Assembly (NCBI GenBank): GCA_001938485.1
Contig: MQRK01177746.1
Coordinates: 1 to 64,000, forward strand
DNA length: 64,000 bases
Source of the DNA: Girardia tigrina
Lineage: Eukaryota
Direction of reading: 5' to 3'
Positions 330 through 60,867 of this stretch are shown here, piece after piece. Position numbers and translations under genes: made by a program. Positions within the stretch are counted from its first letter, which is position 1, and every line of letters starts with the position of its first letter. The notes under the pieces were generated by a model that had not been told where the DNA came from, made no database searches, and saw nothing but the letters and a program-made list of their open reading frames with translations.

Positions 330-1671
330 TCACAGTGAAACCCTTCCTTATGAACGCCATTTTTAATTGGCATAGCATATTCATCACAACATGAGTTAAA
401 AGGAACCACAATAGCTTGAAATGGAATGAATCAAAACGGCCATTTTCCACCATAGTTTTCCGTTATCATACATTCTACGGATCCAAGAATAGCTCGATGT
501 ATAATAACAGGTCTTGCAAGATGGTCATTGTTATCTCCTTCTACGGTATTCGAATCCGTCATATACTCCAATGAAAATCTTATAGACAACTGAAAGTACA
601 ATTGAATTGTCACACATTGATGATGACGTTTCAAGGCATCAGTGATGGTAATATCGATCTTCGGTTCATAAATCGCTCAATCCCCAGGATTTATTTCCTA
701 TTTTTGTTGAAATTGTCGAGAGCATTTTTTAGTTGATTTTCTGCCTTCTCCCACATTGCTACTTCACCTAAAACTTTTTTCCGGCCGTGTTGAGAGTTTA
801 AGTTGATATTTAAATCCAAAATTTTGTAAACATAGTCTAGAAAACCAAGACATGATTCTATTTCACTTGTGATCTGATCTTCTCGACAGAAAATGTGAGC
901 ATCATCTCCTTGGAATCTTCTTACTCCATTTAAACCGGTTAGTGCACCGGATGCCTCATTACGATGAAGTATTCCGAAATACGCGAATCTAATCGGTAAA
1001 TCCTTGTAAGATCTAAGTGTATGTGTATTTATACGTGTATACATACATATGTGTATTAAGTTTTCTGCAAACAAGAGTGGTGCATCTAGAAGTAGCAAGC
1101 AACTTAGAAACAGATGCGTTTCAACAAGTCTTCACTCGAAGGATCGGCAGGAGAGGGAGACCGAGGTTGATCATTTCCGATAATGGAACGAACTTCGTCG
1201 GAGCCTTAAGAGCCATGAAAGACGCAGTAGAGGGAAAATACAGTGTTGATGTTTCGAAAGACAACACTGGAATAACCTGGATTTTTAATCCACCTGGGAC
1301 ACCACATTTCAATGGTGTTTGTGAAATTATGGTAAAGTTGACGAAGAAGGTGCTGTATCACATTTTGAAGAGTGCAGAAATAGCAGAAGAAGAACTTAAC
1401 ACAGCGGTGGTGCAAGCAGCGGGAATATTAAATTCTAGGCCTATTTGTCAAAATAGTAATGACCCAAAGGACGAGAGTGCGCTGACACAAAAATCCTTTC
1501 TGCGAGTCGGAGACGAGCATGTGGAGTTAAATGGAGACGACCCGAACATCAAACAGTGTCCTGGACAATTAATCGGTTTTAGTGCAAATTTGGATTCCTC
1601 GATTTCAATTTGGAACATATTCTCGCTGTAGTGTTCCCAATTCCCACTGATTTCCCATAACTTAGAGTTAT
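330..1671 (-). pseudogene. TARS1: Intronless cytosolic threonyl-tRNA synthetase pseudogene (catalytic core), interrupted at about 1024-1539 and 5'-truncated by a pogo element
   Basis: Motifs [89 protein letters not shown] and ENYGGKWPF. Contains frameshifts and stops; no introns seen. Confidence 0.92.
1040..1539 (+). mobile_element. Bel/Pao LTR-retrotransposon integrase fragment inserted in the ThrRS pseudogene
   Basis: TRVVHLEV...F..RRGRPRLIISDNGTNFVGA...WIFNPPGTPHFNGVCE...LNSRP is the typical Bel/Pao integrase core. No LTRs present. Confidence 0.88.
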
Positions 1672-4040: not shown

Positions 4041-5291
4041 TTGGCAAGTTCTCTTCAAATCACTACAGTAGATCATGTCAATAGGTATATGGCGCAAGTA
4101 CAGACCCGTCTCTTTAGCCTGGGAGAGTCCCAGTTCTGATAGACTTGTCTCCATGTGTCCTGAAGTCGTCTCAAATAACTTTTTTTCCCAAAAACTTTTT
4201 CAACAAACCTTGAATGATTTTATTTTTATTTTCTTCTGTTTCTCCGCTGAAAATTCATTTAATCATTACTAATATAGTTTTTGTTATTTTTTAGTTAAAA
4301 TATCTATAGTTAGATATTTATTTAAATGTTCTTTTACATTATCCAAAATTTAGAAAAAAATTCAAGTAAATTTCAAAAATGAAATCGGTAATTTTAAAGT
4401 ATTGTTTAAAATATTTAACTTTCATTCTAATATTAAATAATATTTAATAATTTAAATCTCGATCAACCAAAAGGAAAATTAAGTAATTCTCATAGCCAAA
4501 AAATTATATTTATACTTTCTTTTTTTGTGAGGAATATTTGATGTGTTAATGTTTTGTGTAGAGTTTGAATGTTGTGTGTTCATCTGGGATCGTGTCTCTC
4601 CTAATCAGACGGATGATTATTATTTTAATTCTTAATCTGAAACTAATTTATTCAAATTTTTAATTTTTATTATTGTAAATTTTAAATAATTTTATTTTTG
4701 TAAGAAAATAATTAAAATCAAATTAATATTTAAAAATTATTTAAAAAAGTAATTTTATTTTAGATAATAAAATTTAAATAAAATAATTTTCTTCAAGTTA
4801 GTTCAGATTTTGGAAGAGAAGTATTAAAACACTGAGTGATGGATTTAAGTGCGAGCGATACTACTGATTGTCATAGAGATGATCAAAATTGTCAGTGTAA
4901 TAAATGCTCTGTCGAATGTGTGAGTTCTCTTCAAAATTTATTGATAATTTTATGATTAATAATATTTTGAATGATAATAATTGATAAGTAATTGTAAATA
5001 AAATAATCAGTTATAATAAATAAAAATTAATTATTTACAATAATTAATAATTACAATTAAGTTTATTATTAATTAAATAATATTTTCAATAAATTAATAA
5101 TATAAATCAATAAAAATAAACAATAAAATAATAGCTATTACAAATACAAAAAAAATATTTTTATTATTACAATTTATTAATAATTACATAATTTAATTAT
5201 AATTTCTTTAGATATTATTAAAAAATAATGTAAAAATAAAATAATTTTACTGTCGCACAATAGTCAGGTGAAAGTATTTCAACGCGCACAT
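4041..5291 (-). CDS. TIGAR: TIGAR-like fructose-2,6-bisphosphatase / histidine phosphatase, exons 1-3 (5291-5251, 4246-4209, 4159-4041); later exons not confidently found in the window
   Basis: Spliced with GT-AG introns this reads MCALKYFHLTIVRH-GETEENKNKIIQG-HMETSLSELGLSQAKETGLYLRHIPIDMIYCSDLKRTCQ. It contains the RHG catalytic motif and the SDLxR motif. The 38-nt exon 2 and the intron phases resemble vertebrate TIGAR as I recall it. Confidence 0.85.
4526..4933 (+). mobile_element. Solo LTR (same family as the Gypsy element at 55963-60867) in TIGAR intron 1
   Basis: Starts tgtgaggaatatttg, shares tgggat.gtgtctctcctaa.caga.ggat with the 60867 LTR, and ends tgtgagttctcttca. Confidence 0.8.
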
Positions 5292-9077: not shown

Positions 9078-9335
9078 CCGTAAAATTATTAATTCTTAAA
9101 TCAAATTTTTAATCTTTAAGTCAATTAGATGGAATATAAACAATTAAGTTAAAAATAACTACAAAATTATTACTTCTTAAATTAAAATTTTAATCATTAA
9201 ATCGATCAGATAGGATAGAAACAATTAAATTAAATTAACCACAAAATTACAACTTCTTAAATTAAATTTTTTAATCTTTAAATCAATTATTTAAGATATA
9301 AATCATTAAATTAAATCAGCCATAAAATTATTATT
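9078..9335. repeat. Tandem repeat of about 81 bp, 3 or more copies
   Basis: aaaatta.(t/a)a.ttcttaaat.aaa.ttttaatc.ttaa recurs at about 9082, 9163, 9243 and, partially, 9324. Confidence 0.7.
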
Positions 9336-9760
9336 GTTTAAATTAATTACGATCATATACATAAATCATCAGTACGCCCTATTTACACGACTAAGAACAT
9401 GACTCGGCTACGCATCAGAGTCCAATGACCATCTCTCTCGATCCCTTGGACGCGGAGACCAACCACAAGCATATTTCCGACCAGTGGGATCTCCAACCTC
9501 TACGGGGTCATCCTTGGATTCTGGAGTTGACCTCGACTCGGACAGGTAACTCAATTTCAAATACTCCATTATCATATTAAAACGCTCGGGACGAAGATAT
9601 CGACAGCAAAATAAATTATTTAAATAATCAAAGGTATCGACAACAAGATAAAATATAAAATTATTTAAATAAAAATAAAATGACATTATGTAAATAAATT
9701 TATTAAGAAGAATTAGAATAATACATAAACCATAGATAAACCATACCTCCAATTAATATA

Positions 9761-15272: not shown

Positions 15273-16319
15273 CAAGGCTTCAATTTTTTCTATTCCCTTT
15301 CCCGTTTTCGTTCACGGGAATGCAATTTTAAAAATTTATGATAACTATTTAAATAGGTAGTCAAAAATAATAAATTATTAAGCTAAAATAGTTGAAATAT
15401 ATTTTATCATTTTTTGTTTGCATTATATAAATAACTTTCATTTTTTACTTCATATTAATTTTGTTAGGGTTTCGAAAAATACATATGAACATTTTTGACA
15501 AAATTTTATATAGAAAAATTTAAAATAATTCTTTTGGTAAAAGTATTAATTTTAAATAAAATAATATTTAGTTTAACAAAAGTTGGAATTGAAAATTAAA
15601 AATATTTTAGTCTTTGTTTTACTTCACCAATTTTCAAGGATGATGAAAACTACTATGTAAACAACAGCAAATCTAGTTTTAGTTTGCCCAAAAAATTATC
15701 TCATCAAAAACAAAAGGAAGCAAGTAAACTCATAGAATTTTTGTTATTTATTATTCTTTTTAAAATATTATTCTTTTTAAACCATAAATAACCCGTATGG
15801 GAGAAAAAGATTTAATTTAAATTTAAACATTCGTTCGTTTTGGAGATTCACAGTTTTTGCTGTAATCTGTTAACTCGTACGAAATATTGTTTTGTGTTCT
15901 GTCATCAAGAATTGAATTATTATTATTATTTTTGATTTGTTTATTTTTGTTATTTGAAATAAAGTTTCATAAAAGAATTTGTGTTCATTGTCTACATATT
16001 TATGTTGGAAGTCCTTTCTGATTAATTGGAGTCAGATTAAAGATTTCAGATTAAAGATTTCAGATTAAAGATTTCAGATTAAAGATTACAGATTAAAGAT
16101 TAAAGTTTAAATAATAAATATTTACAATTAAACATTTAAGATTTGTGTTATAAAAAGTAAATAATTATTATTAATACCCAACAATTTTGTTAACTCATAT
16201 GTCCGGGATATCCGTTCCCGAGAAATATGAAAATGGGAACGGAATTTTCGAAAATCCATTTCCCCGGATTTGGAAATGAAAATCCTAAAAATTAATTTCT
16301 TGGGAAATTTGAAGCCCTG
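15273..16319. mobile_element. Non-autonomous hAT-like element
   Basis: TIRs caaggcttcaattt / aaatttgaagccctg; subterminal ttccc/gggaa repeats; weak 8-bp TSD (5/8 match). Confidence 0.6.
16033..16104. repeat. 14-bp tandem repeat (cagattaaagattt), 5 copies
   Basis: Read directly from the sequence. Confidence 0.9.
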
Positions 16320-20439: not shown

Positions 20440-21205
20440 TTAGGTTGTCCGGAAAGTTCGTAGCGTTTTTCATATTTGATTTCAAGACTGTAATTTTTTA
20501 CTGTTCCCTTTATTTTTCCATGCTTTTTTAATGGTTTCATCAATATTCATATATTATCTTTAAAATCAATTAATTTTCAATTTTTTATTTTCCTAATTAT
20601 GGCCGAAAATAAAATTCATTTAAGAAATGTAATGCTATTTTTTATAATAAGAAGAAAAACACTGCCGAAACGCAGAAAAAAATTTGCGACCTTTATGGTT
20701 CTAGTGCATTTAGGGAAAATATAGTGCGTAAGTGGTTTGCTAACTTCAAGAAAGGTGATTTCAACCTGCAAGATGCAGAAAAATCTGGTCACCCGTCCAC
20801 TATAGATGACGATGAACTGAAAATGAAAATCGCCAAAAATCCGAAAATAAACGTTCAAGACTTGGCATAATTATTGCAGATATCAAAAAGTGCAGTACAT
20901 GAACATTTACAGAAGCTTGATTTTGTTTCAAGACTTTATGCTTGGGTGCCACCTAAATTAACAGAAAAAGTGCTTTCTGATAGAGTTTTTGTCTGCATTT
21001 CGCTCCTCAAAAGAAATAAAGAGAGTCCGGTTCTAAAGCGGCTAATTACCGGCGATTAAAAATGGATAATGTACGATAACGTACAACGCAAAAGATCATG
21101 AGGTAAGCTGGAAAATAAGGCTCTCACATCAGCTAAACCGGATTAGCACCAAAAAAGTTTTATTGAGCGTTGGGTGGGATTGGAAGGGCGTGATTTATTA
21201 CGAGC
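20440..21205 (+). mobile_element. mariner transposon 5' fragment (degenerate transposase)
   Basis: TIR ttaggttgtccggaaagttcg; motifs RKWFANFKKGDFNLQD..SGHP, WVPPKL, LITGD*KWIMYDN and WDWKGVIYYE. Confidence 0.85.
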
Positions 21206-22105
21206 ATACATGTTTGTGTTGAGTGTGTATAAATGAAATTGAATTAGTTATAATTTATAAAATGTAAAGGCGCCATGTACTGTAGCCCGTAGCCCGTAGC
21301 CCATAATTTGAAGGCCGTAGCCCGTAAATTCACGCCCGGCCTGTACGGGCTCCACCCCAGGTTATAAACGTAAGTATATGTGTGAATGTGAAAGTTTTTG
21401 ATTTGATTTGACAGTTGAGTGTGTGTAAGTTATGTGTGTAAAGGCTTTTTTTGATGAAATTTAATCACAATTTCAATCAAATAAAAAAAATCAATTTCAA
21501 ATGGGTGAAAGAAAACAAAATCGATATTATAAATCAGAAATCGAATGCGTTATGTGTATCCTGGAGTCTGAAGGGATTTGTCATTAATCAGTACGACAAT
21601 TTGATTAATGAAAAGCGCTCGAGTGCGATCAAAGACATTTTTGACTCCCTCAGAGCATCTCCATAGGCCCGCATGCTCCCTTCTTCCTTTCAATTCGGAA
21701 AAAGATATATATAACAAGATTTATTAACACAACAATACAACTTGCATCAACAATTAAAAACAACGAATTTCTGTCAATTTCCAGATTGGATAATTTTTAC
21801 CACGGTTAAGTTCAATAAAGGTTTTAAACTTCCACTTCATTTCAGCAGGAGCAACTTGATTTGTCACACGGATTTTGAAATAATGACAAAATGTTTGGAT
21901 GTTGCGATATCTTATAACGTTTATTATATTTATTTTATTTGATACATTAAAACAAAACATATTATAATAATATTATTTATATATTACTTTTAATATAATA
22001 AAACAAACACTTGTTATTAATTTGTTTTAATGAATCACTTTTAATAAATAGATACAAGGCGGGAATTTGAATTATGATGGATACAGTGACATTCATTTTT
22101 AACAA

Positions 22106-22543
22106 ATGCTGTGTAAAATCAATTAGAAAGGATTTACTCAAGATTGTCTAAAAGACCTCCATTTTGGTACTAAACCGTATCAATGTGTTTTACACTTTCC
22201 GGAGTACACCATTATATTCTTCCGCAATGGAAAATGCCGAATAATGGACTATAAACAACCAATTGATCCATTCACTTTACCATTCAATATCACCAATGTT
22301 AGTTTACAATCTATTACAGTGACGTGTGATTATGGTGAGCCCATAAATATCAATGCTTTGAAAAAGACTACTCCGAATCATTATGAACCTGAAATGTTTC
22401 CTTCTTTGAGATTAACTTGTTTTAATCCAATATGTGTAAATGTTTTTGGTTTTGGGAAAATTATAATCACCAGTTTGAGAGATTTGAACTATAAGGATTT
22501 TGTTACACGTGTTTGTGACTATATTTTGTTTAAAACTATGTAA
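22106..22543 (+). pseudogene. Miniature intronless TATA-binding-protein (TBP)-like gene, 145 codons, premature TAG at codon 7
   Basis: MLCKIN*KG...YTIIFFRNGKCRIMDYK (first TBP repeat, like LIFxSGK). Then SLQSITVTCDYGEPININAL...HYEPEMFPSLRL..NPICVNVFGFGKIIITSLR (second repeat, like NIVGSCDVKFPIRLEGL..YEPELFPGL..LLIFVSGKVVLTG). Confidence 0.85.
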
Positions 22544-23468
22544 GTTGTGTTTCAAATATATTTTTTGGTATCTTCATTCCAAATCTTGTGTATATTTTAC
22601 ATTGTACATATTTGTTGCAGCTTTAAAAGCTATGTAAATAAATGTTTGTTGAAATTACTCGTTTTATACATGTCTTTATTCATAAACTTGTAAACAACAA
22701 CTTTTATTATATATAATATTGATATATACTATAAAATGTTAACTGTGCAATTCGTTGACATGATGGTTGATAATAATCACTTAGCTGATTATGTAGATGT
22801 TATGTATAATGTCGATGCATGCTTTAAGTATTATAGGAGTTTTATACATTTAGTTTTTACATCTAAAATAAAAGGTTATATATCTTGGTTATGGTAACCA
22901 TGGTGCTAGAGATTGTTAAGAAGGTACATTAGGCAATTAATGAGTTATGGTTTGATGGTAAATACATGCATATATCATAGGGGTTTCAGATATATACGAA
23001 AAAATGATTTTTGAGCACTTTTTTGAGAATTTCAGAAATGTTCGAAAAATCAATTTATCAGCCCTTTTACAAAAATGTTAATATGGAATCTGAATGTACG
23101 TTATGGGTTACTATTCAAGTGCATTAGCACTTTTTTGATATTCTGCTTCCTTGAACCTCGAAAATCGATGTGCATTTTGTGTAAATTTGCACATTGTGTT
23201 AATTATAGAGAAAAGTAATCAATATATAAAATTTCTAATTGCACATTTAGATAGAGAATCATAATGTGCATCAAACTCATGATATTGATTTTTGACACTT
23301 AAAAAATTTTATGTATTGATTTTTGCACTTTTGCACATGTGCAGCTTGAAAAGCACTGTGTTATCATATTAGAAATGTGTGGCACAATGGGCACTATCGA
23401 TCAGCACTTAAAATATCGATTAGCACATCTTGGCACTGTACAGCAATCGATTAGAACTTTTTTCTACA

Positions 23469-23711
23469 CTTGCTAAGGAAAGGGTCACAGTTGCTATGGA
23501 TACGGTAACCGTTACCATGGTTACAACCGCCTTGAATCACTGTATCGTTGCTAATGAAAAACATCCCTTGGTTACCGTTGATATGGTAACTAAGACCTTG
23601 GTTACCGTTACCAAGTGAACCGGTAACAGGGACCGTTGCCATAGTAACCTAGACCGTTGCTATGGTAACCGCGACCGTTTCTATGGTAATTGAACCTGTG
23701 TCCATGGTAAC
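23469..23711. promoter_or_regulatory. Array of 7 or more RFX X-box-like palindromes
   Basis: GTTGCTATGGATAC (23490), GTTACCATGGTTAC (23511), GTTGATATGGTAAC (23577), GTTGCCATAGTAAC (23635), GTTGCTATGGTAAC (23656), GTTTCTATGGTAAT (23677), GTGTCCATGGTAAC (23698). These match the X-box consensus GTNRCY-N2-RGYAAC, some with mismatches. Confidence 0.7.
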
Positions 23712-23789
23712 CTTTGTCGAATGCTCATTTTCCCCCTACTAATTGTTCAATTTAGCCGATATATTTGCCTGAATGCTAATGCTCACCAA

Positions 23790-24833
23790 GACGAGAAAAC
23801 GCTACGGAAAATATTGCTGAATAGATGGATATATAAATATGGACTACCTAAATAAATCGATGTGGATAGAGGCAAAACATTTGATTCAGAACTATTTAAA
23901 GAAACACTGAAGAAGTTTAAGGAGTATTTTATTCAGCTATGTATCACCACAATGCCAATGGAATTATTGAACGACAATTTAGAACAATTAAATATGCTCT
24001 TAATATCAGAATAAAGGATAGAACGCATAGAGATTGGACGGAAGTATTGTCAGAAATAGAATTTATGATGAATAGTACCATTTAAGCCACGACAGGTATA
24101 TATATATCACCAGCAGAAATAATATATGGAAGGAAATTAAGACATTGGTGGAAAAATAAAGAAGATAAAAGAAACCAAATAGGAACATAAGAAAAAGCTC
24201 CAGAAACGAGAAGAATTTTTAAAGTTGGAGACCAGGTATTAATAAAGAGAGAAAATGCATCAAAAGAAGACGACCGATATATTGGCCCTGCAATGATAAT
24301 AAGACGGAGACATGAAAGAAGTTACGAATTGCTACTCGACAATGGTAAAATACTAATATGAAATATAGAATGGCTAAAGCCATTTAAATCGAGGGGGATG
24401 TGAGGGATAATTTGGAATGTTGTAAGTTTGTTGTTTGTATGATGTTTAGATTTGTGACTCTCTTACTCAGATGGGATTGATATGTTTATTGATTGATTAT
24501 TTGAATTTAATGATATTAATTTTAAGTACTAATTAATTAAAGTTTTATAATTATGAATTTTAATTATATTTTTAGTAAACGATTTTAACTTATTAAATTT
24601 AATATATTTTAAAAATTAATGTTTATTTAAAAAATTACTAATGCATTTTATCCAATAAAATTATGAAAAATTAAAAGTTAATATTAAAAGAATTTCTCAT
24701 TCATTGTTTTTTTTAGATTTGAATATATAAAAAAACTATATTAATCAAAGAAAGATGCTTACTGAGAATTGTTGTGAAGAATCTGTTTGTGTTGTCAATA
24801 AATGTTTACATTCAAATTGTGATGTTTCTAATA
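23790..24833 (+). mobile_element. Gypsy 3' fragment: integrase C-terminus, PPT and 3' LTR (24399-24833)
   Basis: Homologous to 56160-56770 (WIYKYGLP..DVDRGK..HHNANGIIERQFRTI..SPAEIIYGRKLRHWWK). PPT gaggggga, then tgtgaggga. Confidence 0.85.
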
Positions 24834-25546: not shown

Positions 25547-27108
25547 TTATTCTTCTTCACTCAGGAAACATTTAATAACAATTTCGTTGTTCAAAAATAA
25601 GTCTCGCGAAATATCAATTTTCGAGCACTTTAATTCTTTACCAAAAGTAATCCTACGATTTCTTTCATCCTTTGGTTTATCATGAAGTTTTTCTGTCAAT
25701 CTTGTTGCTCCATATTTATATGTAATGTTTACAATTATCTCTTCGGTGTCTTTGTTTATGATAGAAATATTAATATTATTTGTCATCGGCCAAGAAAGTT
25801 GTTCATCGAATTCTCCTTTCAAAATTGTCAACCCTAACATTACTAAATTTCCAGTCGAATACAAAGAAAGAGACATTTTATATCCTTCTTTGTGAGAATA
25901 AAATGGTTCACTTTCTAATTCAATTCCACGTTTTTTATTAAAACTTATATTTTTACCAATTTTCCATTCAAATACTTCATAGGTCTTTCGGCAAAAGACC
26001 TTTAATTTCTGAATTTTCTTTCTAAATCGGAAGAAAACTTCCTCGTCACTCTTTTGGTTTTTATCGATATCATCTGGTAGTTTCTTTAATTCATTTTCGA
26101 TATGGGTCTGAAAATAAGTTTCAATAAACATTTTATATTCAAAAGACTATAATCAAACTATAATAGATCAATAATGATAAAATTATTTGTATTCATCGAA
26201 GGATTGTTTACGCAATTATTTCGTAATAACTAAAATCTCAGAATATTTTAAACGAAGTAGAAGAACATGTTGATTTTTGGAGCAAGAGTATTAATCATCA
26301 GGTATTAACCAATCACCGTCTCCAAATAATTATCAAATTGTGAACAAAAAATTTTAAAATTACTTAGATTATGTAGATTTAAGTAATTTAAAAGTGATTG
26401 GGTACAGAATCCTTCGATATATAAATTTTAGTTTATCAATATTGATATATTATCCTTTTTCAAATATTTATATGAAAAATATATTTATGTACCTCATTAA
26501 TCAAGCGTCGATTCTCAAATTCAGAAATATATTCTATTAATTTTCCGATTTGATTTTGGAGCAACTGAATCATTTCCTGTTTAATATATAATAATTTAAT
26601 ATATTATTCTTATTAAATATCTTACGTCTCTCTCTTTTATACTTGTCTTTAGGTTAGCTATTTCTTTGCCGAAAAATTCTTTGGTATCATTAATACTTTT
26701 CGTGATGTTTTTTGTTATGAGTAAATGTGAGGAAATTTCATTTAAAGATTCAATTTCGTTTGAATTTATTTTACCTTTAAAAAACTGAGAATAACCATTC
26801 TTTTGAGCCACGCCTATTTCGTTTAGAGAACTGTTTTGTTCTTTGGTAGACGAAAGGGAGAACTGAGGGAATAATTTTGCAATTTCCTTCATTATCACTT
26901 TACTTTTCTTTATGTTTTTCACGGGGTTTAATATAAAATCTTTACAGTCTTCCTTTTGACCGGGACAAGGTTTTTCAGTTCCATTTAAATAATTTGTAAT
27001 GCAAGTTAAACAAAAAATACATCCACAAGGAGAATGATGAGCGTTCATCAAGATATTTTTACAAATGATACATTTGTACTTGTCTTCTACGTCCATAACT
27101 TCATTCAT
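25547..27108 (-). CDS. TRAF-family protein (RING, coiled coil, MATH), about 388 aa; exons 27108-26626, 26576-26493, 26146-25547
   Basis: RING CIICKNIL..PCGCIFCLTC..CP; GT-AG phase-0 introns; MATH domain FEWKI..SEPFYSHKEGYKMSLSLY..ILKGEFDEQLSWP..IVIKC. Reading frame is open throughout. Confidence 0.9.
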
Positions 27109-27987
27109 TATTCCTGCATCAATATTAATTAATTAAATATTTATTAAACAATCTTTTTATTTATAAAAATAGGAAAAAAATATTAACCTTACGAAAATGA
27201 TACAAATTTGATACAATATAATTTTTTTAAAACAAATTTTAATTTAAATATTAATTTTGATTTTCTCTGAATATTTGCAAAAAAAACATTTAATTTTCAA
27301 TATAAAAAATTTTAAAGAAATAATTATTTTTAGTTGTGAAACAAAATTTAATAGAAAAAAATAAAGATTGGCGGTGTTGTCTAAATCGAAGTTAGGATCT
27401 CGGTCGGTCGTCCACTATAGAGACCAAGAAAAGAATGTACATCAAATAGTTGTCGAAAGTCCATAATACAAATAAAAAAATCGTTATTTTATTATATTTA
27501 TATTTTTTTCAAAACTAAATCCGTCTAAATACAAAGCTTTTAAATTTTAATTTCGACCGCAAATGATTAAAAAGTTTAATAGAATTAATAAAAATAAAAT
27601 GTCCGGAATTAATTTTAAAAGCTTATAAATAAAATCGTGCTTTCTGTCTTTTTCAACCAAGATGACTTCTATAAAAACGAATATAAATATTTTTTAACAA
27701 AAAGTGACAACATCTTAAAACAGCAAATCATACTTTATTTTCGAGATATTAATAAAAAAGGTATTTTTTTTAAAATTTTAAACTTTAAATATTTGACATG
27801 AAAGATGTATATTATTTTTACAATTACATCATATATATGAAAAAAATTATTACATCCTATAAAATCAATTTTTTATCTCTCTTTTTTAAAAAAATGAAAA
27901 TGTTATTAAATTATATTAATTCGTATAATTTTTTATTCACCAAAATCCACAACGTGTTTTGGTCCTGAAATAATTATTGTCAGTAAC

Positions 27988-29250: not shown

Positions 29251-29892
29251 TTTGATATTTGTGCAACATTTCAATGCAAAACAGAACATTTAAAAATATT
29301 CTTAACTCTTATCTTTTTATGCAGACTCTTTTTAGTGATAATAAATCAATGGAGTCCTTTAAGCTTGCCTCTTTGCTTGATGTATTTTTATTGTATCTTT
29401 GTTTATGTTCTTATTTTTCCAGGAATCGAAAATTTACAACATTGAAAAAATCTTTTAAAAATCTCAATATTATAAAATTATTATTTTTAAATTATAAATA
29501 ACTTAAAGATTTGGATCGAGAATTTCTAAAACTAAAATTTCTAAAACGAAACTTACTAAAATCAAAATTTATAAAACTATAATTTTGAAAAGGAGAATTT
29601 TTAAAAACGAAATATTTGAAATAAAATATATTGAAATAATATTTCTAAACCTAAATTTATCTTAGTAAAATCACATAAACGTTCCCTATAAAACACATTA
29701 TTATCTTTTCAGAAAAAAATATGAAAATAAAACTTAAAATTTGGTTAAATTTACAAAATAAAATAAATCAGATAAGCAATTTTTGAATATTGCATTATAA
29801 GTTGTTTTATTTTATATTATATTATTAATATTGCATTATGCAAAAGAAATTTCGTTTTTAATGTATTTAAAATTCATTGATTGTTTCAAATA

Positions 29893-32324
29893 CTTAGGCT
29901 GTCCCAAAAGTCCTCAGGTGGCCTTTAAAAACACACTAATATTCTACCAAATTTAACCACATTTGGACTGAATATTATTCAGACTGTCATAAACACTGTA
30001 TTAAAATTTCAAAGCATAAAATTTGAAACTTACCAAAAAAATAATATTATTAACCAATAAAAAAATAGATGCAGCGAATTTAAAAATTTATTTAAAAAAT
30101 ATTTTAAAAATTTCTTAAGCAACAACATATTCACCATTGTTGTCAATAACCAACTGGCAATAGTTAAAAAGTTTAACTAGTTGATTTTTTAATGTTTCTG
30201 TTGATAAAGAATTAAAAAGGAATTTAAAAGCTTCTTCAATTTCTACATGTGATTTGAAACATGATTTGGTGGTGCGAGAGTGGGCGCAGCTTGGTGGCCG
30301 CGGCGTCCTAGCGCTGGGGGGTGGACTGCGGGACGCAGGGGGCTTAAATTCACAATCTCACCCAACCGGTCAAGAATCCGCCCGATATCGATTTTATTCT
30401 CTACAGTCAATTTTTAGATCTCCGATGAATTTATCTTCAGTCATTATGGCTTTAACATCATGTGGAACGTTTTTTGACAGGTTTTTGTAATTGAAAATAT
30501 ATGGTTGAAATATTTCTTCCCGAAGTTCAAGTGTCATTTTCGCCGGAGTCAGTTTCTCATCTCTAATAAATTGTTTTACGCCAGACACTTCAAATTTAAC
30601 GATCATAGTGATTAAAATGAAAAGACTTTCGATTAACAAATTTATTTTTCTTTCTACACTTTTACAGACAATGGCGACTTCAACTCCTTACAATTTTTAA
30701 CTTTTTCGCGCTGACTTTAAAAAAAACTGATCGATTTAAACAAATCGAAATAATTCACTTTTTTTCAAATAATTATAATAATATTTTTTTCTGTCTTTAC
30801 ATGATTTTGGCAACATTGCCCCCCTCTTTTTTTATTTATTTATATTTTTTAACATGTAAATAAAATAACTTTGGATGAAAAATAGTCATAATAATAAACA
30901 AAAAGTCGATAAATAATCTGTTATTCGGCTTTCGAAATTTTGCTGATTATAGAAATTATTATAATTGGATTTTATTTATCCAACTGATTTAAGGATTTTT
31001 TAAGTCTTCTTTCAAAACAGTTTTACTGGAGCCTTGATGAATCTTCCGCAATACCCAAAAATTGTCATAATGAATCATTTGCAAACTTTTCAACATTGAA
31101 TTGAGAGTTTGTAATTTTCCTGATTACTCTATGTCTCTCACAGAAGTCGCAGAAAGCCCGCAGAAACCAATCCTGGGCAGGCAACCACAGTCCGACTCCA
31201 CGTTTCGATCTTCGTATCACCGCGAATCCGACACCAGAACCCTGATCACTTTCTGATTTTGTTTTTCGTTTTTCACTCACCTCTAATTTCCACTTTCTCA
31301 TACTTTTTACAATCAAATATGATTTTTAAAACTTTTCTTCATTTTTGAAAACAAGAATCTCTCACAGATTAAAATCTGGACTATCGGGCGATTGATAATT
31401 TTTTTCAATTTTTCTTCTTTCAAAAAACGAGTTGTTTCTTTGCTAGAATGAGGTCTTGCATTATCATTCCACCACTTAAGTTCTTTTAGCTTGATGCTGT
31501 TAAATCTAAGTTTTCGCAATATTTCGCCGGTGTCATGAACAAAGTTCACATACGCCTCGGAATCAATCTTGGTACCATATGGCAGTGCTTTTACATTAAA
31601 ACATTTGTGATTTTCTTTCTTTCCTCTACCTTGGAAAAAGACCCATGTCTCATCATTGATCGCTATGTTGGAATATGCTTCATCACCCATCTGTAGCGTA
31701 TATGCTTTGCAGTGTTAATGCGTTGTTGTTTATTAGCAGCAGAAATGTCGTGAGGGACCCAAACAGAGCAACCTTTTTTGTAATGAAGTTTTTCACGCAA
31801 AATTTTGTGGACTGTATTTTTGCCTAAAGAAAGTTCATTTTCAATATAACACAAAGACACATTTAGAGCATCATCAATCACTTCTTTGACTGCTTTAATC
31901 TTTTCATCATCTATTAATGACGGCCTGCCATTTCTTGATGAATCGTCGAAGGATGTCCGCTTTTCTTTTTTAAAATCAGTCAACCATTATTGAATAGTTT
32001 TCAGTGCTGGGTGATTTGCGTCTTCCCATGCCTGCTGAAGAATTTCTGAAGCAGAGAATCCTCTTTTACTTTGAGTTAGAAAAAAAAACGTTGGCAACAT
32101 TTATTTGGTTCCATTGTTAAAAACCGCTTGATTTGAATTCGCTGCATTTTTAAAATTTCAATACTTTAATAAAAAAAAATTTTACTTTTTTTTAATTTTA
32201 TGCTTTGAAATTTTAACACAGTATTTATGACAGTCTGAATAATATTCAGTCCAAATTTGGTTACATTTGGTAAAATATTAGTGTGTTTTTAAAGGCCATC
32301 TGAGGACTTTTGGGACAGCCTAAG
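29893..32324 (-). mobile_element. mariner-like element with long (>130 bp) TIRs, degenerate transposase 32114-30115, interrupted by a solo LTR
   Basis: TA-flanked TIRs cttaggctgtcccaaaagtcctcag...; motifs RNGRP, WVPHDI, INDETWV, NDNARPH, SPDFNL and VIDNNGEY. Confidence 0.92.
30267..31319. mobile_element. Solo LTR (1053 bp) inserted in the mariner
   Basis: 5-bp TSD TGATT. Left end tggtggtgcgagagtgggcgcagc is homologous to the solo LTR at 61881 (tgatggtgcaagagtgggcgcagc). Confidence 0.75.
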
Positions 32325-32439
32325 TATTTAGAAAATTATTAATAAATAGATTCATACTTAAATTTACTTTACTCTATATTTTGATACCACCTATGACATT
32401 ATTGTTGTTAATTTAAGGTGTATTTATTTTATTTTAGAA

Positions 32440-40124: not shown

Positions 40125-41510
40125 GATCGAAATCGGTTGTTGAAAATGATGGAAAAAGTACAGAAAGAAGAGATATTCAAGCCGAATTGAAAGCGATTAA
40201 AAGTCGACAGAAAGCGAGCGAAGAATTTCTCAAAGACGAGAATAAACTCAATTAAAGCCGACAACTGCTATGCCAGCAACGGGTAAAACCAATCAAAACG
40301 ATTCCGAATTTCTGGATCAATGCGCTGAGTAATCATCTCCAAATGATGTCACGCATCACCGAACACAACAAAGATCCACTTCAGTCTCAACGATTATTTC
40401 TCGAACTTGACCATTGTGAAACCGAGTGTTCAAAGCCGTCACTTTCGAAACCGTTGTCGAAACCGTCGAAGCGATATTTGAGTGAGCCATTATTACGTCT
40501 ATACCCCTCCCGTACTGCAGTCAACCCCCTAACGCCGACGCACCGTAGCCACGAGTCAACTGCGCCCGTTTTGTTGCCAACAAATAGTTTTAAAACAAAT
40601 TTTGGTTTTCTTATGTTTATTATTCAACAAAAATGAGCATTTTGATGTTTTATGCAATGTACAAAACCAATATTTTTATAAAGTTGCGTTTAAAAAATTT
40701 TTTATTCTATAAAAAGTTTATTTTCCGTAAAAAATATATCTACTATATTTATTAGTATTTTATATTATCCGGAATTCTGATAAAAAAAATTCTGTGTGAT
40801 ACAGAAGATTAAATTGGTTTTTAAAGTTTCATATTTGTTCTATCAATACTCGATCCACCTGGTAATTTTCTGTGAAGAAAGAAATATGTTGTGAATTTTA
40901 ATGAAATAAATTGTTATTTGTGTTATTTTATTGTTTCAAGTTAGGCATTTCGATATTGTTCTTTCTACCTTTATCATTAATAGATTGTTTTAAATGTTCG
41001 TGCTTCTGAATCTGTCAGACAAATGAAAATCTTTCCATTCTCACCATATAATCATACTTATGCAATTTTCTTTTAAGTTTGTCACATAAAATATAGACAT
41101 GTATGTGGAGCTTATATTCCAGAAAGGATATATTCTGTGATTCAGGTACCTGAAAGACACGTTTTACTATTTGTTTGTTTTCAATGATTGTTTGATTCTC
41201 GAAATACTGTTTAAATGATTTTTTAGAGAAAATATCCATAGTTTTAAAGAATGAATTGATAACTCAATCGGAGTAAGCAGGTTTAACAGATTATTCTGGT
41301 TTGATTTCTGGTTAACTGTTTGTTAAAATGATCGGCGCAAATATTAATTCAGCCTAATAAACAATCTCAGGTGATTTTCTATCAAAATCCCCAGAATCAT
41401 CACTGAATTGATTTATATTAATTTATTGAATGGTTAAATCGAAGGCGAATGATAACTTAATTCTCATCCATACAATTTCCACGTAGACAGTCTATAGGTA
41501 ATCGCGTTGC

Positions 41511-47185: not shown

Positions 47186-48131
47186 ATATGACACATTTTG
47201 TAACTATTTTTATGAGAATAAAACGGTTGACTTTCAAGATTAATGGAATTATTAAGGAAATTCTTCTTCTCAATTCTACATTCGAATTCTTGGTTGATTG
47301 CAGCTTCAAGTTTCTGGATATTTTTTTTGAGTTCCATCAAATTTTCTACATCTTTTTTTCTTTGTTTGTTAAATTGAATTGAAATTTTTTGAGATTCTTT
47401 TTCTATTTTTGTCTAAAATTGAATCGATAAGATACATTCGTAAAACATCGAATTATATTTACCTCATTAAGTGATTCTTCTTTTTCAAGCTGAGAAACTT
47501 TGATGGCAAGGATTGCGAGTTGATCTTGAAGGGTTTGTATAAACTCCTAAACAAAAACACATTTTTAGATTAGTAACTTAACATTTATTAAACATTTTAC
47601 GTTTTTATCTTTAATAGTTTCCTTTAGATCCTCGTATTCTTTTGTAAAAGATTTTTTTTCTTTTTCAAACTCACTGAGATATTTTTTAAGCAAACTTGAA
47701 TGAGAAAGGCTTTCAGAAGAAAGATGTGTTTGAACATCTTTTATTTCCACAAAATCTGATTGACATCCAATATCACTATAAGGACATTTTGAACGGGCAT
47801 CATTACACTTATATGAGTGAGGAATTATATGCTTTAATTTGCCTTCTTTTTCACAAGAAGAGCATTTTACAACAATATTCGTAATCAAAGTAGCAAGAGT
47901 TAAACTGTAACGTATACTTCCATCGTTTAATGATACCTTGCCACATTTATTAGTTGATCCAGGACACAAATTTTCAGAGTTATTTAGATAATTTGCTATA
48001 CAATCCTTGCAGTAGGTGCAGCCACAAGGTCCAAAGTAAGGATTTATCAAAAGATCATGACAAATGATACACTTGTATTTGTTTTTAATGTTTGTTATTA
48101 AAAGAAAACGATTTCGATCTTCGGTATTCAT
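47179..48131 (-). CDS. TRAF-family paralogue (RING, zinc fingers, coiled coil, MATH start only), about 282 aa; exons 48131-47601, 47546-47463, 47412-47179
   Basis: RING CIICHDLL..PCGCTYCKDC..CP; TRAF zinc finger CPYSDIGC..H; the same 84-nt exon 2 as the 27-kb paralogue. Exon 3 reads ...FECRIEKK..ESQPFYSHKNSYKMCHIL* at the Penelope junction. Confidence 0.85.
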
Positions 48132-48322
48132 TGTTTCTAAATAAAAATAATTATTATTATTTTCTGTTATTTAATTAAAATATCATCTTTATATTTATTC
48201 ATAAAAGATTTGAGATATTTTACCGTTCTCGTGGGAGAACGAATTATGAAAAAAATATAATATAAAATAAAATTTAAAAAACTGAAATAAGTTAGGAAAA
48301 TTAAAGAAAAATGATCTGAAGC

Positions 48323-52993: not shown

Positions 52994-55962
52994 AGGTTCA
53001 TGTACAATATATTTTTATGAAAGTTGCACCAGTGATTAACAAATATAAATTCCTACATAATCTTTGTTCATTTGAACCTCAATAATTTTTATTTCATCAA
53101 TTATGGAGCTAGGTTCGAGTTACGAATAATTAACACAGCCTTCGAATTAATTTTAATTTGAAATCAGTTGAATTTCATTGAATAATATTAGTGAACGAAG
53201 TAAATTTATAATTTACACCCAGCAAAAACATACAAATCACCAACAAATTGTGTGCACACATGACATTTAGTGACTGTATTGAATAAATCATACATACATT
53301 ATATGTAAATGTATATTTACATATAATATATACCATATTTATATTAATCTGAAAAAAAATAATTTAGTAAAAGTCGTTGAAGTTTTCTTAAGCTATGCTA
53401 TTGTTTTTGTTCATACATTAAAAGTAATCATTTCGTCTTTAGAAATTTCGGTTAAACAAACGGTTAAACGTTTAATTCTTTAAACGGCTTGTGTTTAAAC
53501 ATTTTACACTTGTTATTTAATTAAAAAGTTAATTCAATAAATATACAGACTTTTTAAAAATAGAAAAAAAACAACAACAGAACACTAAAAAAACTAACAA
53601 AAAATGGTCTATATTTTTATTACAGTGATAACAAACATGTATATATTTTATTGAAGAGCTATAATTCTATGAAAATAAGAAAGTTTGTCGATCTCATAAT
53701 AATATTCTGCTACTATGGCAGCTACGTTTTAGGATAAAATTGCTTATTGTTTCTGTTGTCCGGTTCCCTGTTATCGAAAAAAATTAGCCGAACCACATAA
53801 TTGTGAAACACCACGACGTTCTTCAGGATCCGCTCTGCCAGTCTCGGTCATCGTGTACCATTGTCATACCGCTGGGTCCGACGGGAACACGGGCGGACTG
53901 GGCGGGAACCGGGCTGACAGCAATCGCAGGTTTAGGACTCCGTGAGAATCTTCGTGGACTGACCGACAAGAATGTCCCGCAAGATTCGATCTAAGTTCGA
54001 AGAAGTGACTGTTCTTCTAAACAACAGTACTGAAAATGATTGAATTTCCTTTGCTAAGGCCACACTGTCACGAGCTCAAACCGTAAATCGGGATTTGAAT
54101 AGTTCTAGTTCCTGTAGGCTGATTTCTTTTCGGGATCTATCGAAATATGCTGCAGATCAACGATACAATCATTCAAAGTGAACAAAATTAAGATCGATAA
54201 AAGTAAATGTAAAAAAAAGTCGAACTGACAATTATTTAATTGAATTTTCACAAAAAAAAGTTATCCGACTGTAAAATCGTATTAATGAATTAAGAATAAA
54301 ATGTAACCACGATTAATTAAACATTTATTTAATAACGACAATTATTAAAACAAATGTATTTTTTTAGGATTTAATTAATATTTGAATTTTCATTAATTAA
54401 ATCTTTTCTCGACACTACAGCTTCTTCTTTCTTTAGGAGATGTAATCGCCTAGGTAGTTTGGTGGCTTGCGTTTTCGTTTTCCGTCTGTTCCGTTCTCCA
54501 TGATTTTTTCATAGTCCTTCCGGTGGTGTTCGGTCGTCCGATTGTCCACTTTTTCTTTCTCTGGTTCTGGCTTTTTCATGAGTCTTAGTTTTCCGGTGTT
54601 TATCGTAAATTTATTATCTGTTAGGAATGTGTGAGGTCCTATCTGCTTTTCCAATCTCCGGATAGGTCCTCCATGTGTTTGTACGATATCCCCGACTTTG
54701 AATTGGTTTGTAAATTGTGGCTTTCTCCTGTTATTTGCGTATTTTATTCGTTCTTGAATTTTCTTTTGTACAACTTTTTGAAGTTCTATTTTCTCCTCTG
54801 TCGGTTCATCTCTTCGTCTTATTTCTAAACGAGTATTAATTTTCCTTCCGAACATCAATTCTGCGGGTGTCTTTTCTGTAGTGCAATGCTTTGTTGCATG
54901 ATAGTTCAGTAAGTATTCTCGGATTCTCTTTTTAGCTTCTGAGAGGCCTTTTGGTACGCCTTCTGGTGTTAAAGCCTTCTTTACGTTTCTATTTATCCTT
55001 TCGACTGTTCCGTTAGCCTGTGGATTATAGATTGAAGATCTACGTTGTGTTATTCCACACTGCTATAGGAATCTTCTAAAATCGTCCGAGATAAATTGTG
55101 GTCCATTGTCAGTAGTCATGATCGTACAATAACCGAAACGGCTAAAGGTTTCTTCTAGGAATTCAATTATCGTTTCTGTAGATACTTCTGTTGTGATCTT
55201 GATTTCTGTAAATTTCGATTGATAATCAATTAAATTTAAAATATAATATTTTCGCTCGCTCATATCGTATTTCGGTCCTGCAATGTCCAAGGCTAAGTGA
55301 AACCAAGGTTCGATCGGCCATATTGATTCCTGTACCGGGCTTTCTCTTGGAATTGATCCGCAGCATACACACTTTGATATTGTTTCTTCTATATGCTTGT
55401 CCATCCCCGGCCACCAGTAGCTTGTTCTTAATCTGGTTTTAGTCTTTACCATTCCTTGGTGTCCTTCGTGAGCGATCTTCATTATTTTCTCTTGTAGACT
55501 TGTAGGTACAACAATTCTATCTCCTCGTAGTATGACTCCATTAGTTTTTGAAAATTCATATGGTTTCCTGAAGGCCATTCACAATTTATTGTTATCCGTT
55601 CCATCTGGATTGTCGAGGAACACTGCTAGTTTTGAGAGATCGTCATCTTTCTTCGTTTCTTCTTCTATTTCCTGAATGGTTATTGCATTCATATTAGTTA
55701 TGATAGCTACTTCGACGTTTTCTTCAAATCTCTCTTCGTACTCGTTTTTCCCAGATAACCTTGACAATCCATCTGCAACAACGTTGGTTTTTCCTTTGAT
55801 ATGTGAAACCGTGAAGTTATATGGTAAGAGCTTTGTAGCCCACCTTGAGATTCTGCATGGTGCCGTACCATCTCCATTAATGGCAGATAGTAGTTGTCGT
55901 AAGCTTTGGTGATCTGTTCTTACTTGAAATTTTCGTCCATAAAGGAATCTATGCAATCTCAT

Positions 55963-58900: not shown

Positions 58901-60867
58901 CATTCAATTGAACAATTCCATAATTGATCAGTTCTGAATCATTTGCGCAATGGATACGTTTTTTCGTTTCTCTTATTTTAATATCTTTCATGCTTTTAAT
59001 TATCTCCGCTTTAATTACATTTACTCTTGCTCCACTGTCCAAAAGGCAATGAACTTTTTTATCTTTCACGTAAAAATCCACACATGGACTTCCTTTCAGT
59101 TCTTTATAATTTATCTTAAACTTTGATATCTTCAATATTTCCGTTTTACCATTTAGTTTCTTATCATCTGGAGTTGTCATACTATTACACTGTTCTCGAT
59201 TTACAATATCTTCGCATTCAAGTTCGCACATCTCTTGAGGAATATTTCCATCCGTAACATCAAACATACAATCACACACACATTCATACATACAATCAAA
59301 CATACATTTACATTGGGTTTCTAATGAATCACACTGATCACCTCTCCTTGTGATCGTGCGTCCTCGTTTCCCTGTTCGTCTCCGGATCTTCTTTTACCTC
59401 TAGAATAATTTCTTGTTGTATTCTCTTCTCTTCTATCAGACATTTCCGATCTCCTGTCCATTTCATCATCTCTGTCGTCTAACTCCGCCAAGTGTTGTTT
59501 CTTATTCATATATGCCGGACGTTCTCTATATCTCTGATTAGAATAATCTCTCCTGTCATTCCCACGATTTCTATTATTGTCCCATTTCCGTTGGTCACGT
59601 TCTTTAAACCTATTTGGGTTTTCATAACATTGTGTTCGNNNNNNNNNNNNNNNNNNNNNNNNNNNNNNNNNNNNNNNNNNNNNNNNNNNNNNNNNNNNNN
59701 NNNNNNNNNNNNNNNNNNNNNNNNNNNNNNNNNNNNNNNNNNNNNNNNNNNNNNNNNNNNNNNNNNNNNNNNNNNNNNNNNNNNNNNNNNNNNNNNNNNN
59801 NNNNNNNNNNNNNNNNNNNNNNNNNNNNNNNNNNNNNNNNNNNNNNNNNNNNNNNNNNNNNNNNNNNNNNNNNNNNNNNNNNNNNNNNNNNNNNNNNNNN
59901 NNNNNNNNNNNNNNNNNNNNNNNNNNNNNNNNNNNNNNNNNNNNNNNNNNNNNNNNNNNNNNNNNNNNNNNNNNNNNNNNNNNNNNNNNNNNNNNNNNNN
60001 NNNNNNNNNNNNNNNNNNNNNNNNNNNNNNNNNNNNNNNNNNNNNNNNNNNNNNNNNNNNNNNNNNNNNNNNNNNNNNNNNNNNNNNNNNNNNNNNNNNN
60101 NNNNNNNNNNNNNNNNNNNNNNNNNNNNNNNNNNNNNNNNNNNNNNNNNNNNNNNNNNNNNNNNNNNNNNNNNNNNNNNNNNNNNNNNNNNNNNNNNNNN
60201 NNNNNNNNNNNNNNNNNNNNNNNNNNNNNNNNNNNNNNNNNNNNNNNNNNNNNNNNNNNNNNNNNNNNNNNNNNNNNNNNNNNNNNNNNNNNNNNNNNNN
60301 NNNNNNNNNNNNNNNNNNNNNNNNNNNNNNNNNNNNNNNNNNNNNNNNNNNNNNNNNNNNNNNNNNNNNNNNNNNNNNNNNNNNNNNNNNNNNNNNNNNN
60401 NNNNNNNNNNNNNNCACACATTTGACAGAACATTTATTACATTCACAATTTTTATCATCTTTATGATGATCAATATTATTGCTTTCACTAGAATCCATCA
60501 ATCAATTTTCAATATCTCCTATTATAATCTGAATTATACTTGATAAGACTATTTTATTTAAAAATATTTAATTTAAATTTGATTGACTAAAATAAAATAT
60601 TTTTTATAGTCATTCTTAAACATTAATTTGATTTTAATTATTTAAAAATTTACAAAAATAAAATCATTAAAATTATTTAAAAGTTTCAATAATAAAAACT
60701 AAAAATTTGAAAATTAAATCTAAATTTAAATAAATTAGTTTCAGATTATAAAAAAAATAAATATTGATAATCCATCTGGTTAGGAGAGACACAATCCCAA
60801 ATCAACATACAACATTTGAACATGCAAAAACTAAACAAAAACATCCACACACCAAATATTCCTCACA
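55963..60867 (-). mobile_element. Gypsy LTR retrotransposon A, full length, nested in the RNase H region of element B
   Basis: Perfect TSD CTCAT. 5' LTR about 60400-60867; 3' LTR 55963-56158 (internally deleted). Protease LLDSGA, RT YLDD, RNase H DAS, integrase; several frameshifts. Confidence 0.95.
59335..59372 (-). other. Candidate -1 ribosomal frameshift signal at the gag-pol junction
   Basis: G_GGA_AAC heptamer in the gag frame, 5-nt spacer, then hairpin cgcac-gatcac/gtgatc-a-gtgtg. The -1 frame is open into pol. Confidence 0.75.

What the first reader, a model, noticed from the sequence alone, without database searches (positions are those of the whole stretch)
23490..23711. RFX X-boxes phased at exactly 21 bp (two helical turns)
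Seen: X-box starts at 23635, 23656, 23677 and 23698, and at 23490 and 23511, are each 21 bp apart. The 14-bp boxes vary around the X-box consensus and the spacers differ. Established: RFX factors bind GTNRCY-N(0-3)-RGYAAC and control ciliogenesis and spermiogenesis genes. Inference: a same-face binding array acting as an enhancer or replication-origin helper.
Basis: partly seen in the sequence, partly recalled or inferred. Interest (0 to 1): 0.7.

Follow-up and report, generated by a model that had tools for sequence, protein, structure and literature searches.

The report
RFX-site array in decayed mobile DNA
This is a real cluster of nine look-alike binding sites for the host transcription factor RFX, six of them 21 bases apart, at the edge of a decayed mobile or virus-like DNA insert, most likely a leftover switch that once let the element use host RFX rather than a working host enhancer.

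Summary
The boxes are real. Scored with the human RFX2 matrix, the six claimed 14-mers are the six best sites in 64 kb (one ties with a chance hit elsewhere). The true spacings are 21, 36, 30, 30, 28, 21, 21, 21, so only 4 of 8 gaps are two turns. The spacers are not free: 3 of 7 bases are kept, and TRF calls part of the array a 21-bp tandem repeat. Boxes still diverge less than spacers (7/56 vs 9/28 in the four register-defined units; 344/20000 simulations, 1108/20000 after scan correction), modest evidence against a neutral minisatellite. The array ends 27-29 bp from a sharp junction with a broken gypsy integrase. It closes a 2.5-kb island with two other motif arrays and a dead gene for a short (145 aa) TBP-like protein of a large family. 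No ciliary gene was found nearby. Best reading: a relic subterminal RFX enhancer or origin-helper of an unclassified DNA element, like RFX/EF-C sites in viral enhancers and ITRs. Binding, function and conservation across copies are untested; no second copy could be fetched. Interest 0.4.

The parts
23490..23503 (.). X-box-like unit 1 (RFX2 relative score 0.945, rank 3 in window)
23511..23524 (.). X-box-like unit 2, 21 bp after unit 1 (0.918, rank 4; exact match to the quoted consensus on the minus strand)
23635..23648 (.). unit 6 (0.946, rank 2; exact consensus match)
23656..23669 (.). unit 7 (0.969, rank 1; exact consensus match)
23677..23690 (.). unit 8 (0.908, rank 6)
23698..23711 (.). unit 9 (0.909, rank 5), last box before the junction
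23622..23689 (+). 21-bp tandem repeat as called by TRF (3.2 copies, 80% matches, no indels)
22884..22909 (-). outlying inverted copy of an array unit (81% over 26 nt to 23590-23615; RFX2 site at 22894, 0.83)
   Evidence: (1 of 300 shuffles as good)
22900..23440 (.). non-coding stretch rich in GCAC/GTGC (17 in 22900-23480 against 1.4 expected) with four ATCGAT; binder unknown
23738..23740 (.). sharp right junction of the island: 0 of 9 bases match the gypsy copy at 23731-23739, homology starts at 23740; candidate element terminus 27-29 bp beyond the last box
22106..22543 (+). TBP-like pseudogene (145 codons, in-frame stop at codon 7, 22124-22126; 88% identical to P0001); family of short TBP-fold proteins
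22736..22897 (+). short ORF (53 aa), no family match; ends inside the outlying X-box-like unit
21454..21942 (+). ORF1 (70 aa, weak GSKIP-domain hit below cut-off) and ORF2 in the same frame, broken by in-frame stops; no usable homologue found
21282..21368 (+). GCCCGTA repeats (4 of the window's 7) followed by a TATAAA at 21363; promoter-like start of the island
20441..21206 (+). left flank: 5' half of a mariner transposon, cut off; no second end found in the window
23740..24415 (+). right flank: decayed 3' part of a gypsy integrase and polypurine tract, 73% identical to 56143-56811

Best explanation
The array is a relic cis-regulatory block at the end of a mobile or virus-like DNA element that inserted among other transposon debris. 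It grew by tandem duplication of a unit of about 21 bp (with 15- and 30-bp steps in the middle) that holds one full palindromic RFX site, and selection on the active element kept the sites while the four bases after each drifted. Host RFX dimers would load side by side on the six strong boxes, roughly on one helical face, and drive the element's transcription, or help initiate its replication, in RFX-rich cells such as ciliated or male germ cells. SHOWN: the sites, their matrix rank, their spacing, the uneven divergence, the junction, the decayed neighbouring genes. INFERRED: that RFX binds, that selection acted, that the array and the TBP-like gene belong to one element, that the junction is the element's end, and any enhancer or origin role. 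This copy is probably dead now.
For: Six best RFX2 sites of the window within 222 bp (matrix from the PMC5838959 supplement). Box vs spacer departures 7/56 vs 9/28 in the four register-defined units (344/20000 simulations), 12/84 vs 17/42 in the six claimed units (10/20000). The most variable box columns are 4 and 6, the degenerate R and Y/N positions of the consensus. Observed differences cost less matrix score than random ones: 118/20000 (4 units), 26/20000 (7 units), 449/20000 with transitions weighted 4x. Sharp junction 27-29 bp beyond the last box, inside a gypsy integrase frame. The island has closely packed genes without evident introns and three motif arrays. Its TBP-like gene belongs to a family of 144-164 aa proteins (85 aligned) that did not turn up in GTDB genomes, phages or plasmids except as ordinary distant TBPs at 24-40% identity. 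Precedent: RFX1/RFX3 bind the AAV ITR D sequence and EF-C inverted repeats in HBV and polyomavirus enhancers (PMC5760533, passages); a TBP-like gene is listed among MELD-virus genes (PMC8502044, section 10); two validated X-boxes 42 bp apart occur in human MAP1A.
Against: No second copy could be compared, so selection is inferred from nine related units of one array under a simple star model. The 6-, 7- and 9-unit tests are partly circular because units were picked by box likeness, and the least biased test is borderline after scan correction (1108/20000). Only 4 of 8 gaps are 21 bp and all nine units are not phased. No replicase, integrase, transposase or capsid gene of the island's own is in the window, so the element class is unknown. 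A host RFX gene was not shown. Functional X-boxes usually lie within 500 bp of a start site (PMC5838959), and no gene start follows the array; the island's promoter-like region is over 2 kb away. The link between array and TBP-like gene rests on adjacency only.
Confidence: 0.5

Rival explanations
1. The block 22884-23740 (outlying unit, GCAC-rich stretch, array) is a separate non-autonomous DNA transposon or transposon end that landed next to the TBP-like island. The repeats are subterminal sites for RFX or for the element's own transposase or initiator, and have nothing to do with the TBP-like gene.
For: An inverted copy of a unit marks the left edge of the block, where a short ORF stops. The junction read inward can be taken as starting TAGGG or AGTAG; both resemble DNA-transposon ends (recalled, no call). 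The five YAACGG words overlapping the left box ends show that the conserved unit is longer than an X-box.
Against: No convincing terminal inverted repeat or target duplication around 22884-23740. The match to a 14-bp RFX dimer matrix is close to optimal, which is hard to get by accident from a transposase site. No similar block elsewhere in the window.
Confidence: 0.22
2. Neutral minisatellite: a seed that happened to contain a palindromic X-box-like word was duplicated by slippage or unequal exchange and is decaying without function.
For: TRF calls a 21-bp repeat; 3 of 7 spacer bases are shared; mixed 15/21/30-bp periods are typical of slippage arrays; the unbiased four-unit test is only borderline after scan correction (1108/20000); the surrounding genes are dead.
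Against: Variation piles up in four adjacent columns and in the two degenerate box columns, and it spares the matrix score. Boxes persist at 28-, 30- and 36-bp spacing where the flanks have diverged.
Confidence: 0.15
3. The functional sites are Myb-type words (YAACGG, recalled consensus) formed by the conserved three bases plus the left half of each box, alone or as Myb-RFX composites, as in cell-cycle or meiotic promoters.
For: 5 of the window's 32 YAACGG matches lie at 23509-23659, all on the minus strand over the left box ends. The three bases before the box are about as conserved as the box.
Against: 4 of 9 units lack the word. The RFX2 matrix itself favours G at the second flanking base (0.50), which explains the best-kept flank base. 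The five words are copies of one unit, not independent events.
Confidence: 0.08
4. The array is, or has been co-opted as, an active host enhancer for a nearby gene such as the TRAF gene at 25547-27132.
For: Several boxes remain near-optimal although the neighbouring gene has decayed. A TRAF gene lies about 1.8 kb away.
Against: The array lies beyond the 3' end of that gene, across a gypsy remnant. No ciliary gene was found among 119 ORFs scanned. No expression or chromatin data.
Confidence: 0.05

Closest known systems
RFX X-box (JASPAR RFX2 MA0600.1; Emery consensus as quoted in the PMC5838959 supplement)
   Same: 14-bp imperfect palindrome with a 2-bp spacer (AT in 7 of 9 units); six units score 0.91-0.97.
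   Different: Nine copies in 222 bp instead of one or two near a start site; no target gene start follows; binding untested.
RFX/EF-C sites of viral enhancers and termini (HBV enhancer, polyomavirus enhancer, AAV ITR D sequence; PMC5760533, passages)
   Same: RFX-type inverted repeat in the regulatory or terminal DNA of a parasitic element.
   Different: The passages read describe individual sites in vertebrate viruses; here a tandem array in an integrated, decayed element of unknown class in an AT-rich animal-type genome.
21-bp repeat enhancers and auxiliary origins of viruses (SV40 21-bp Sp1 repeats, HTLV-1 21-bp Tax-responsive repeats; adenovirus ITR NFI/Oct-1 sites) - recalled, no call
   Same: Two-turn repeat unit carrying a host factor site; host factor sites just inside a terminus.
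   Different: Different factor; no origin or replicase shown here; spacing only partly 21 bp.
Polinton/Maverick, adintovirus and other MELD viruses (PMC8502044; 10.1101/2023.08.22.554363)
   Same: Compact gene island, long non-coding end region (about 850 bp, within the 100-1500 bp TIR range), TBP-like gene named among MELD-virus genes.
   Different: No PolB, integrase, ATPase or capsid gene, no second TIR and no target duplication in the window; kinship of this TBP family with the MELD-virus TBP untested.
Minisatellite
   Same: 21-bp period, 80% matches by TRF.
   Different: Divergence is uneven along the unit and favours the box.

Membership tests
RFX X-box | 14-bp imperfect palindrome matching the consensus or matrix | tested here: met
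   9 of 9 units >=0.80 and 6 of 9 >=0.90 on RFX2 MA0600.1; 3 of 9 exact to the strict consensus
RFX X-box | Bound by an RFX protein | not testable with these tools
   needs EMSA or ChIP
RFX X-box | Close to the start site of a target gene (robust window +/-500 bp in PMC5838959) | tested here: not met
   a truncated gypsy integrase follows; the island's promoter-like region is over 2 kb away; a lost downstream gene cannot be excluded
RFX X-box | Conserved between species or copies | not testable with these tools
Same-face phased array | Sites at whole multiples of about 10.5 bp | tested here: inconclusive
   six strong boxes R=0.99 at 10.4 and 0.85 at 10.5; all nine R=0.37, p=0.23
Neutral minisatellite | Head-to-tail repeat unit | tested here: met
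   TRF period 21, 3.2 copies; autocorrelation peak at 21
Neutral minisatellite | Uniform divergence along the unit | tested here: inconclusive
   rejected at 344/20000 (fixed box vs spacer) but only 1108/20000 scan-corrected in the unbiased four units; 0-12/20000 in larger, partly circular sets
Polinton/adintovirus/MELD virus | Protein-primed PolB, integrase, packaging ATPase, capsid genes | tested here: not met
   none among 119 ORFs scanned against Pfam, apart from retroelement integrases; the island is only a 2.5-kb fragment
Polinton/adintovirus/MELD virus | Paired terminal inverted repeats of 100-1500 bp and 5-8 bp target duplication | tested here: inconclusive
   only one candidate end is present; the left side is cut by a mariner
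TBP family (neighbouring gene) | TBP sequence signature and fold | tested here: met
   Pfam PF00352 E 4.6e-10; model of relative P0001 pLDDT 92.5, Foldseek to TBP structures E about 4e-9, TM 0.7-0.78
TBP family (neighbouring gene) | Intact reading frame | tested here: not met
   stop at codon 7; departs at 6 of 32 highly conserved columns, against at most 4 in 85 relatives

The most novel reading that the evidence does not exclude
The island is a fragment of an undescribed, widespread family of animal DNA elements or viruses that carry their own minimal TBP (about 145 aa, first repeat lacking its helices) and place a phased array of host RFX sites, possibly RFX-Myb composites, just inside the terminus, so that transcription or replication fires in ciliated or male germ-line cells: an RFX counterpart of the SV40 21-bp repeats or of the adenovirus auxiliary origin.
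Probability: 0.2. Interest if true: 0.72.

Novelty: new variant of a known kind. Interest (0 to 1): 0.4.

Why it matters
RFX sites in viral control DNA are known from a few vertebrate viruses. A tandem array of them near the end of an integrated element in another animal lineage would show that parasitic DNA reuses RFX more widely, perhaps to reach the germ line, and each insertion would scatter ready-made RFX enhancers through the host genome. The array also points to the less studied object beside it: a large family of short TBP-like proteins whose carrier element I could not find described in the papers searched. If the array is only a decaying repeat it matters little.

Tried and rejected
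No RNA gene: Rfam 0 hits, ARAGORN 0. Hairpin or cruciform role: the array folds only slightly better than shuffles (z -2.1, diffuse ensemble), as expected for palindromic units; the left end z -0.8. Coding role for the array: the longest open frames across it are 64-65 aa; the + strand one had no Pfam match. The most degenerate Drosophila X-box consensus is uninformative here (36 matches vs 30.5 expected). The RFX5 half-site matrix discriminates poorly (216 sites >=0.80). The 14-mer at 62364 identical to unit 8 has no flanking similarity and is taken as chance. Context for the TBP-like family: the GTDB scan gave 30 of 30 loci with distant TBP matches at 24-40% identity; phages none; plasmids 25 records, the 20 listed all haloarchaeal TBP or transcription-factor genes; the cluster look-up could not be made. 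ORF1/ORF2: one spurious hit, a receptor phosphatase, no homologue, no Atlas hit, no PDB hit, model unusable at pLDDT 34. PEVE/PIVE of planarians was considered as the parent element: no helicase or Rep gene in the window, and the primary paper was not held, so this stays open. Vesanto-like segmented viruses: no TBP or TATA mention in the main text of PMC8363768. Nested insertion into the mariner: no second mariner end found. The sigma-70 scan does not apply to a eukaryote. No complex prediction was run.

Full report
SETTING. The window is AT-rich scaffold DNA (GC mostly 20-40%) with N gaps. Pfam scans of 119 reading frames found TRAF-like exons, tRNA-synthetase fragments and many transposon remnants: mariner, pogo-type and gypsy. 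I infer an animal genome. The host was not identified and a host RFX gene was not shown. No RNA family or tRNA is present.

THE OBSERVATION. The cluster is not chance. In 23480-23720 there are 3, 6 and 9 sites within 0, 1 and 2 mismatches of GTNRCY-NN-RGYAAC, against shuffle means of 0.0015, 0.09 and 0.66, with 0 of 2000 shuffles reaching any count. The three exact matches are the only ones in 64 kb. For an independent measure I took the JASPAR RFX2 matrix MA0600.1 from the supplement of PMC5838959. The T row was cut after column 9 and was completed from the column total; I used the 14 core columns. The six claimed boxes rank 1 to 6 in the window, the sixth tying with a lone 14-mer at 62364 that has no flanking similarity. 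Six sites reach 0.90 inside the array and one outside.

Three more units lie between the two groups, at 23547, 23577 and 23607 (0.81, 0.88, 0.85). The spacings are 21, 36, 30, 30, 28, 21, 21, 21, with 30- and 15-bp periodicity in the middle. The spacer is not free: the three bases before each box are about as conserved as the box (pairwise identity 0.67-0.73), and only the four after it vary (0.20-0.29). TRF, blind to RFX, calls 23622-23689 a 21-bp repeat, so the array arose by tandem duplication. On phasing, the six strong boxes fall on one face at 10.4 bp per turn (R 0.99) and less well at 10.5 (0.85). All nine together are unphased (0.37, reached by 23% of random spacings). Only two facts bear independently on phasing: the unit length and the 124-bp gap between the groups. 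That is suggestive, no more.

MOTIF ARRAY OR NEUTRAL REPEAT. In the four units defined by the 21-bp register, departures from the majority base number 7 of 56 in boxes and 9 of 28 in spacers; 344 of 20000 uniform-mutation simulations are as uneven, and 1108 of 20000 when the test may pick the best four columns. For the six claimed units it is 12 of 84 against 17 of 42 (10 of 20000). Inside the box the most variable columns are 4 and 6, the degenerate positions of the published consensus. The observed differences cost less RFX2 score than random ones: 118 of 20000 for four units, 26 of 20000 for seven, 449 of 20000 with transitions weighted fourfold. The larger sets are partly circular and the model ignores the duplication history, so this is moderate evidence for selection on the boxes at some time. 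One alternative reading of the conserved flank: it creates Myb-like YAACGG words (consensus recalled) at five box ends, 5 of the window's 32, although the RFX2 matrix itself prefers the best-kept flank base.

SURROUNDINGS. The array closes a 2.5-kb island, 21207-23740. On the left a mariner stops mid-transposase with no second end in the window. On the right a gypsy integrase remnant, 73% identical to 56143-56811, starts abruptly at 23740; the nine bases before it match the other gypsy copy at 0 of 9 positions. The last box ends 27-29 bp before this junction. Read inward, the end begins AGTAG or TAGGG depending on where the cut is placed. Both recall DNA-element termini (Polinton; hAT or Academ), but that is from memory, the source paper was not held, and the evidence is weak. 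Inside the island are GCCCGTA repeats and a TATAAA, two same-frame ORFs broken by stops with no usable homologue, a TBP-like gene, a short ORF, an inverted outlying array unit at 22884-22909 (1 of 300 shuffles as good), and a GCAC-rich stretch (17 against 1.4 expected). Nothing in the island recurs elsewhere in the window.

THE TBP-LIKE GENE. It is 88% identical to P0001 and belongs to a family with 478 profile hits. The 85 aligned members are 144-164 aa. The model of P0001 is confident (pLDDT 92.5) and matches TBP structures and, more distantly, TBPs of large DNA viruses. The window's copy is dead: a stop at codon 7 and departures at 6 of 32 highly conserved columns, against at most 4 in any of 85 relatives. 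Of the 120 listed hits, 105 come from contigs under 5 kb, which fits small or repetitive elements but is also usual for such assemblies. GTDB genomes, phages and plasmids gave only distant ordinary TBPs or nothing.

MECHANISM. Most likely (0.5) the array is the subterminal control block of a mobile or virus-like DNA element. Duplication of a unit holding one RFX site built it, selection on the active element kept the sites, and host RFX dimers loading side by side would have driven transcription or helped replication in RFX-rich cells. The sites, spacing, uneven divergence, junction and decay are shown. Binding, selection, one-element linkage with the TBP-like gene and function are inferred. 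Rivals are a separate transposon end with its own binder (0.22), a neutral minisatellite (0.15), Myb or composite sites (0.08) and a co-opted host enhancer (0.05). Against the best reading, functional X-boxes normally sit within 500 bp of a start site and none follows here, and no replicase or transposase of the island's own is in the window.

COMPARISON WITH WHAT IS KNOWN. It works like the RFX/EF-C sites in HBV and polyomavirus enhancers and the AAV ITR D sequence (PMC5760533, passages) and, by recall only, like the 21-bp repeats of SV40 and HTLV-1. Two validated X-boxes 42 bp apart occur in human MAP1A. A TBP-like gene is named in the figure legend for MELD viruses with adintovirus-like PolB (PMC8502044, section 10; its supplement gave no hit). 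Membership of Polintons or adintoviruses is not met on gene content and is inconclusive on termini (PMC3014272 and 10.1101/2023.08.22.554363, passages). Other papers seen as passages or term counts only: PMC3198968, 10.1101/2024.03.25.586562, PMC2375033, PMC8363768, PMC5838959 (passages and one supplement part), 10.1101/555375, 10.1101/2025.02.07.637071, PMC9683012, PMC11296320. Searches for RFX arrays in transposons and for small TBP-bearing elements, judged from their listings and the few papers opened, showed no description of this arrangement. The library lacks most subscription journals and Repbase, and bioRxiv supplements were closed; the genome maps of 10.1101/2024.03.25.586562 could list such TBP genes.

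VERDICT. Observation partly confirmed: real and strong boxes, but a longer and less regular array than described. Interpretation partly supported: RFX-type sites with signs of past selection, no sign of a ciliary target, function untested. New variant of a known kind; interest 0.4. The boldest reading not excluded is an undescribed family of mini-TBP elements with an RFX array at the terminus (probability 0.2, interest 0.72).

Noticed in passing
window 22106-22543: Pseudogene of a large family of short TBP-like proteins: 478 hits to a 10-sequence profile (some may be ordinary TBPs); of the 120 listed, 105 lie on contigs under 5 kb (median 1,492 bp) and none lists an NCBI or UniRef source. The model of P0001 has the TBP fold with no helices in the first repeat. 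Carrier element not identified.
   Followed up: partly
window 21282-21368: GCCCGTA repeats (7-bp tandem x3, a 21-bp-spaced pair at 21291/21312, one inverted copy) directly before a TATAAA; promoter- or iteron-like.
   Followed up: partly
window 22900-23480: 17 GCAC/GTGC words (1.4 expected), 7 ATGTGC, 4 ATCGAT; a second motif array of unknown binder.
   Followed up: partly
window 23509-23659: Five Myb-like YAACGG words (recalled consensus) overlap the left ends of five boxes, all on the minus strand.
   Followed up: partly
P0006: The closest relative over its TBP part (92% over 72 aa) runs on into about 150 residues with no family match and no counterpart in the window.
   Followed up: partly
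window 25547-27132 and 47565-48170: Two TRAF-like genes (RING, zinc finger, MATH exons), suggesting a local TRAF expansion.
   Followed up: no
window 434-1131 (minus): Class II tRNA synthetase fragments (threonyl-like by my reading), overlapped on the other strand by an integrase-like ORF at 1017-1631.
   Followed up: no
window 54433-61763 (minus): Nested gypsy elements: one sits inside another, with a 183-bp direct repeat at 55977 and 60425; related sequence at 4526-4922.
   Followed up: no
window 29884-32334: Mariner-like element with 141-bp inverted ends at 95% identity.
   Followed up: no
window 9082-9346 and 16032-16143: An 81-bp x3.3 and a 14-bp x5 AT-rich tandem repeat.
   Followed up: no
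window 40256-40636: Weak nucleosome assembly protein (NAP) fragment, E 7e-4, below cut-off.
   Followed up: no
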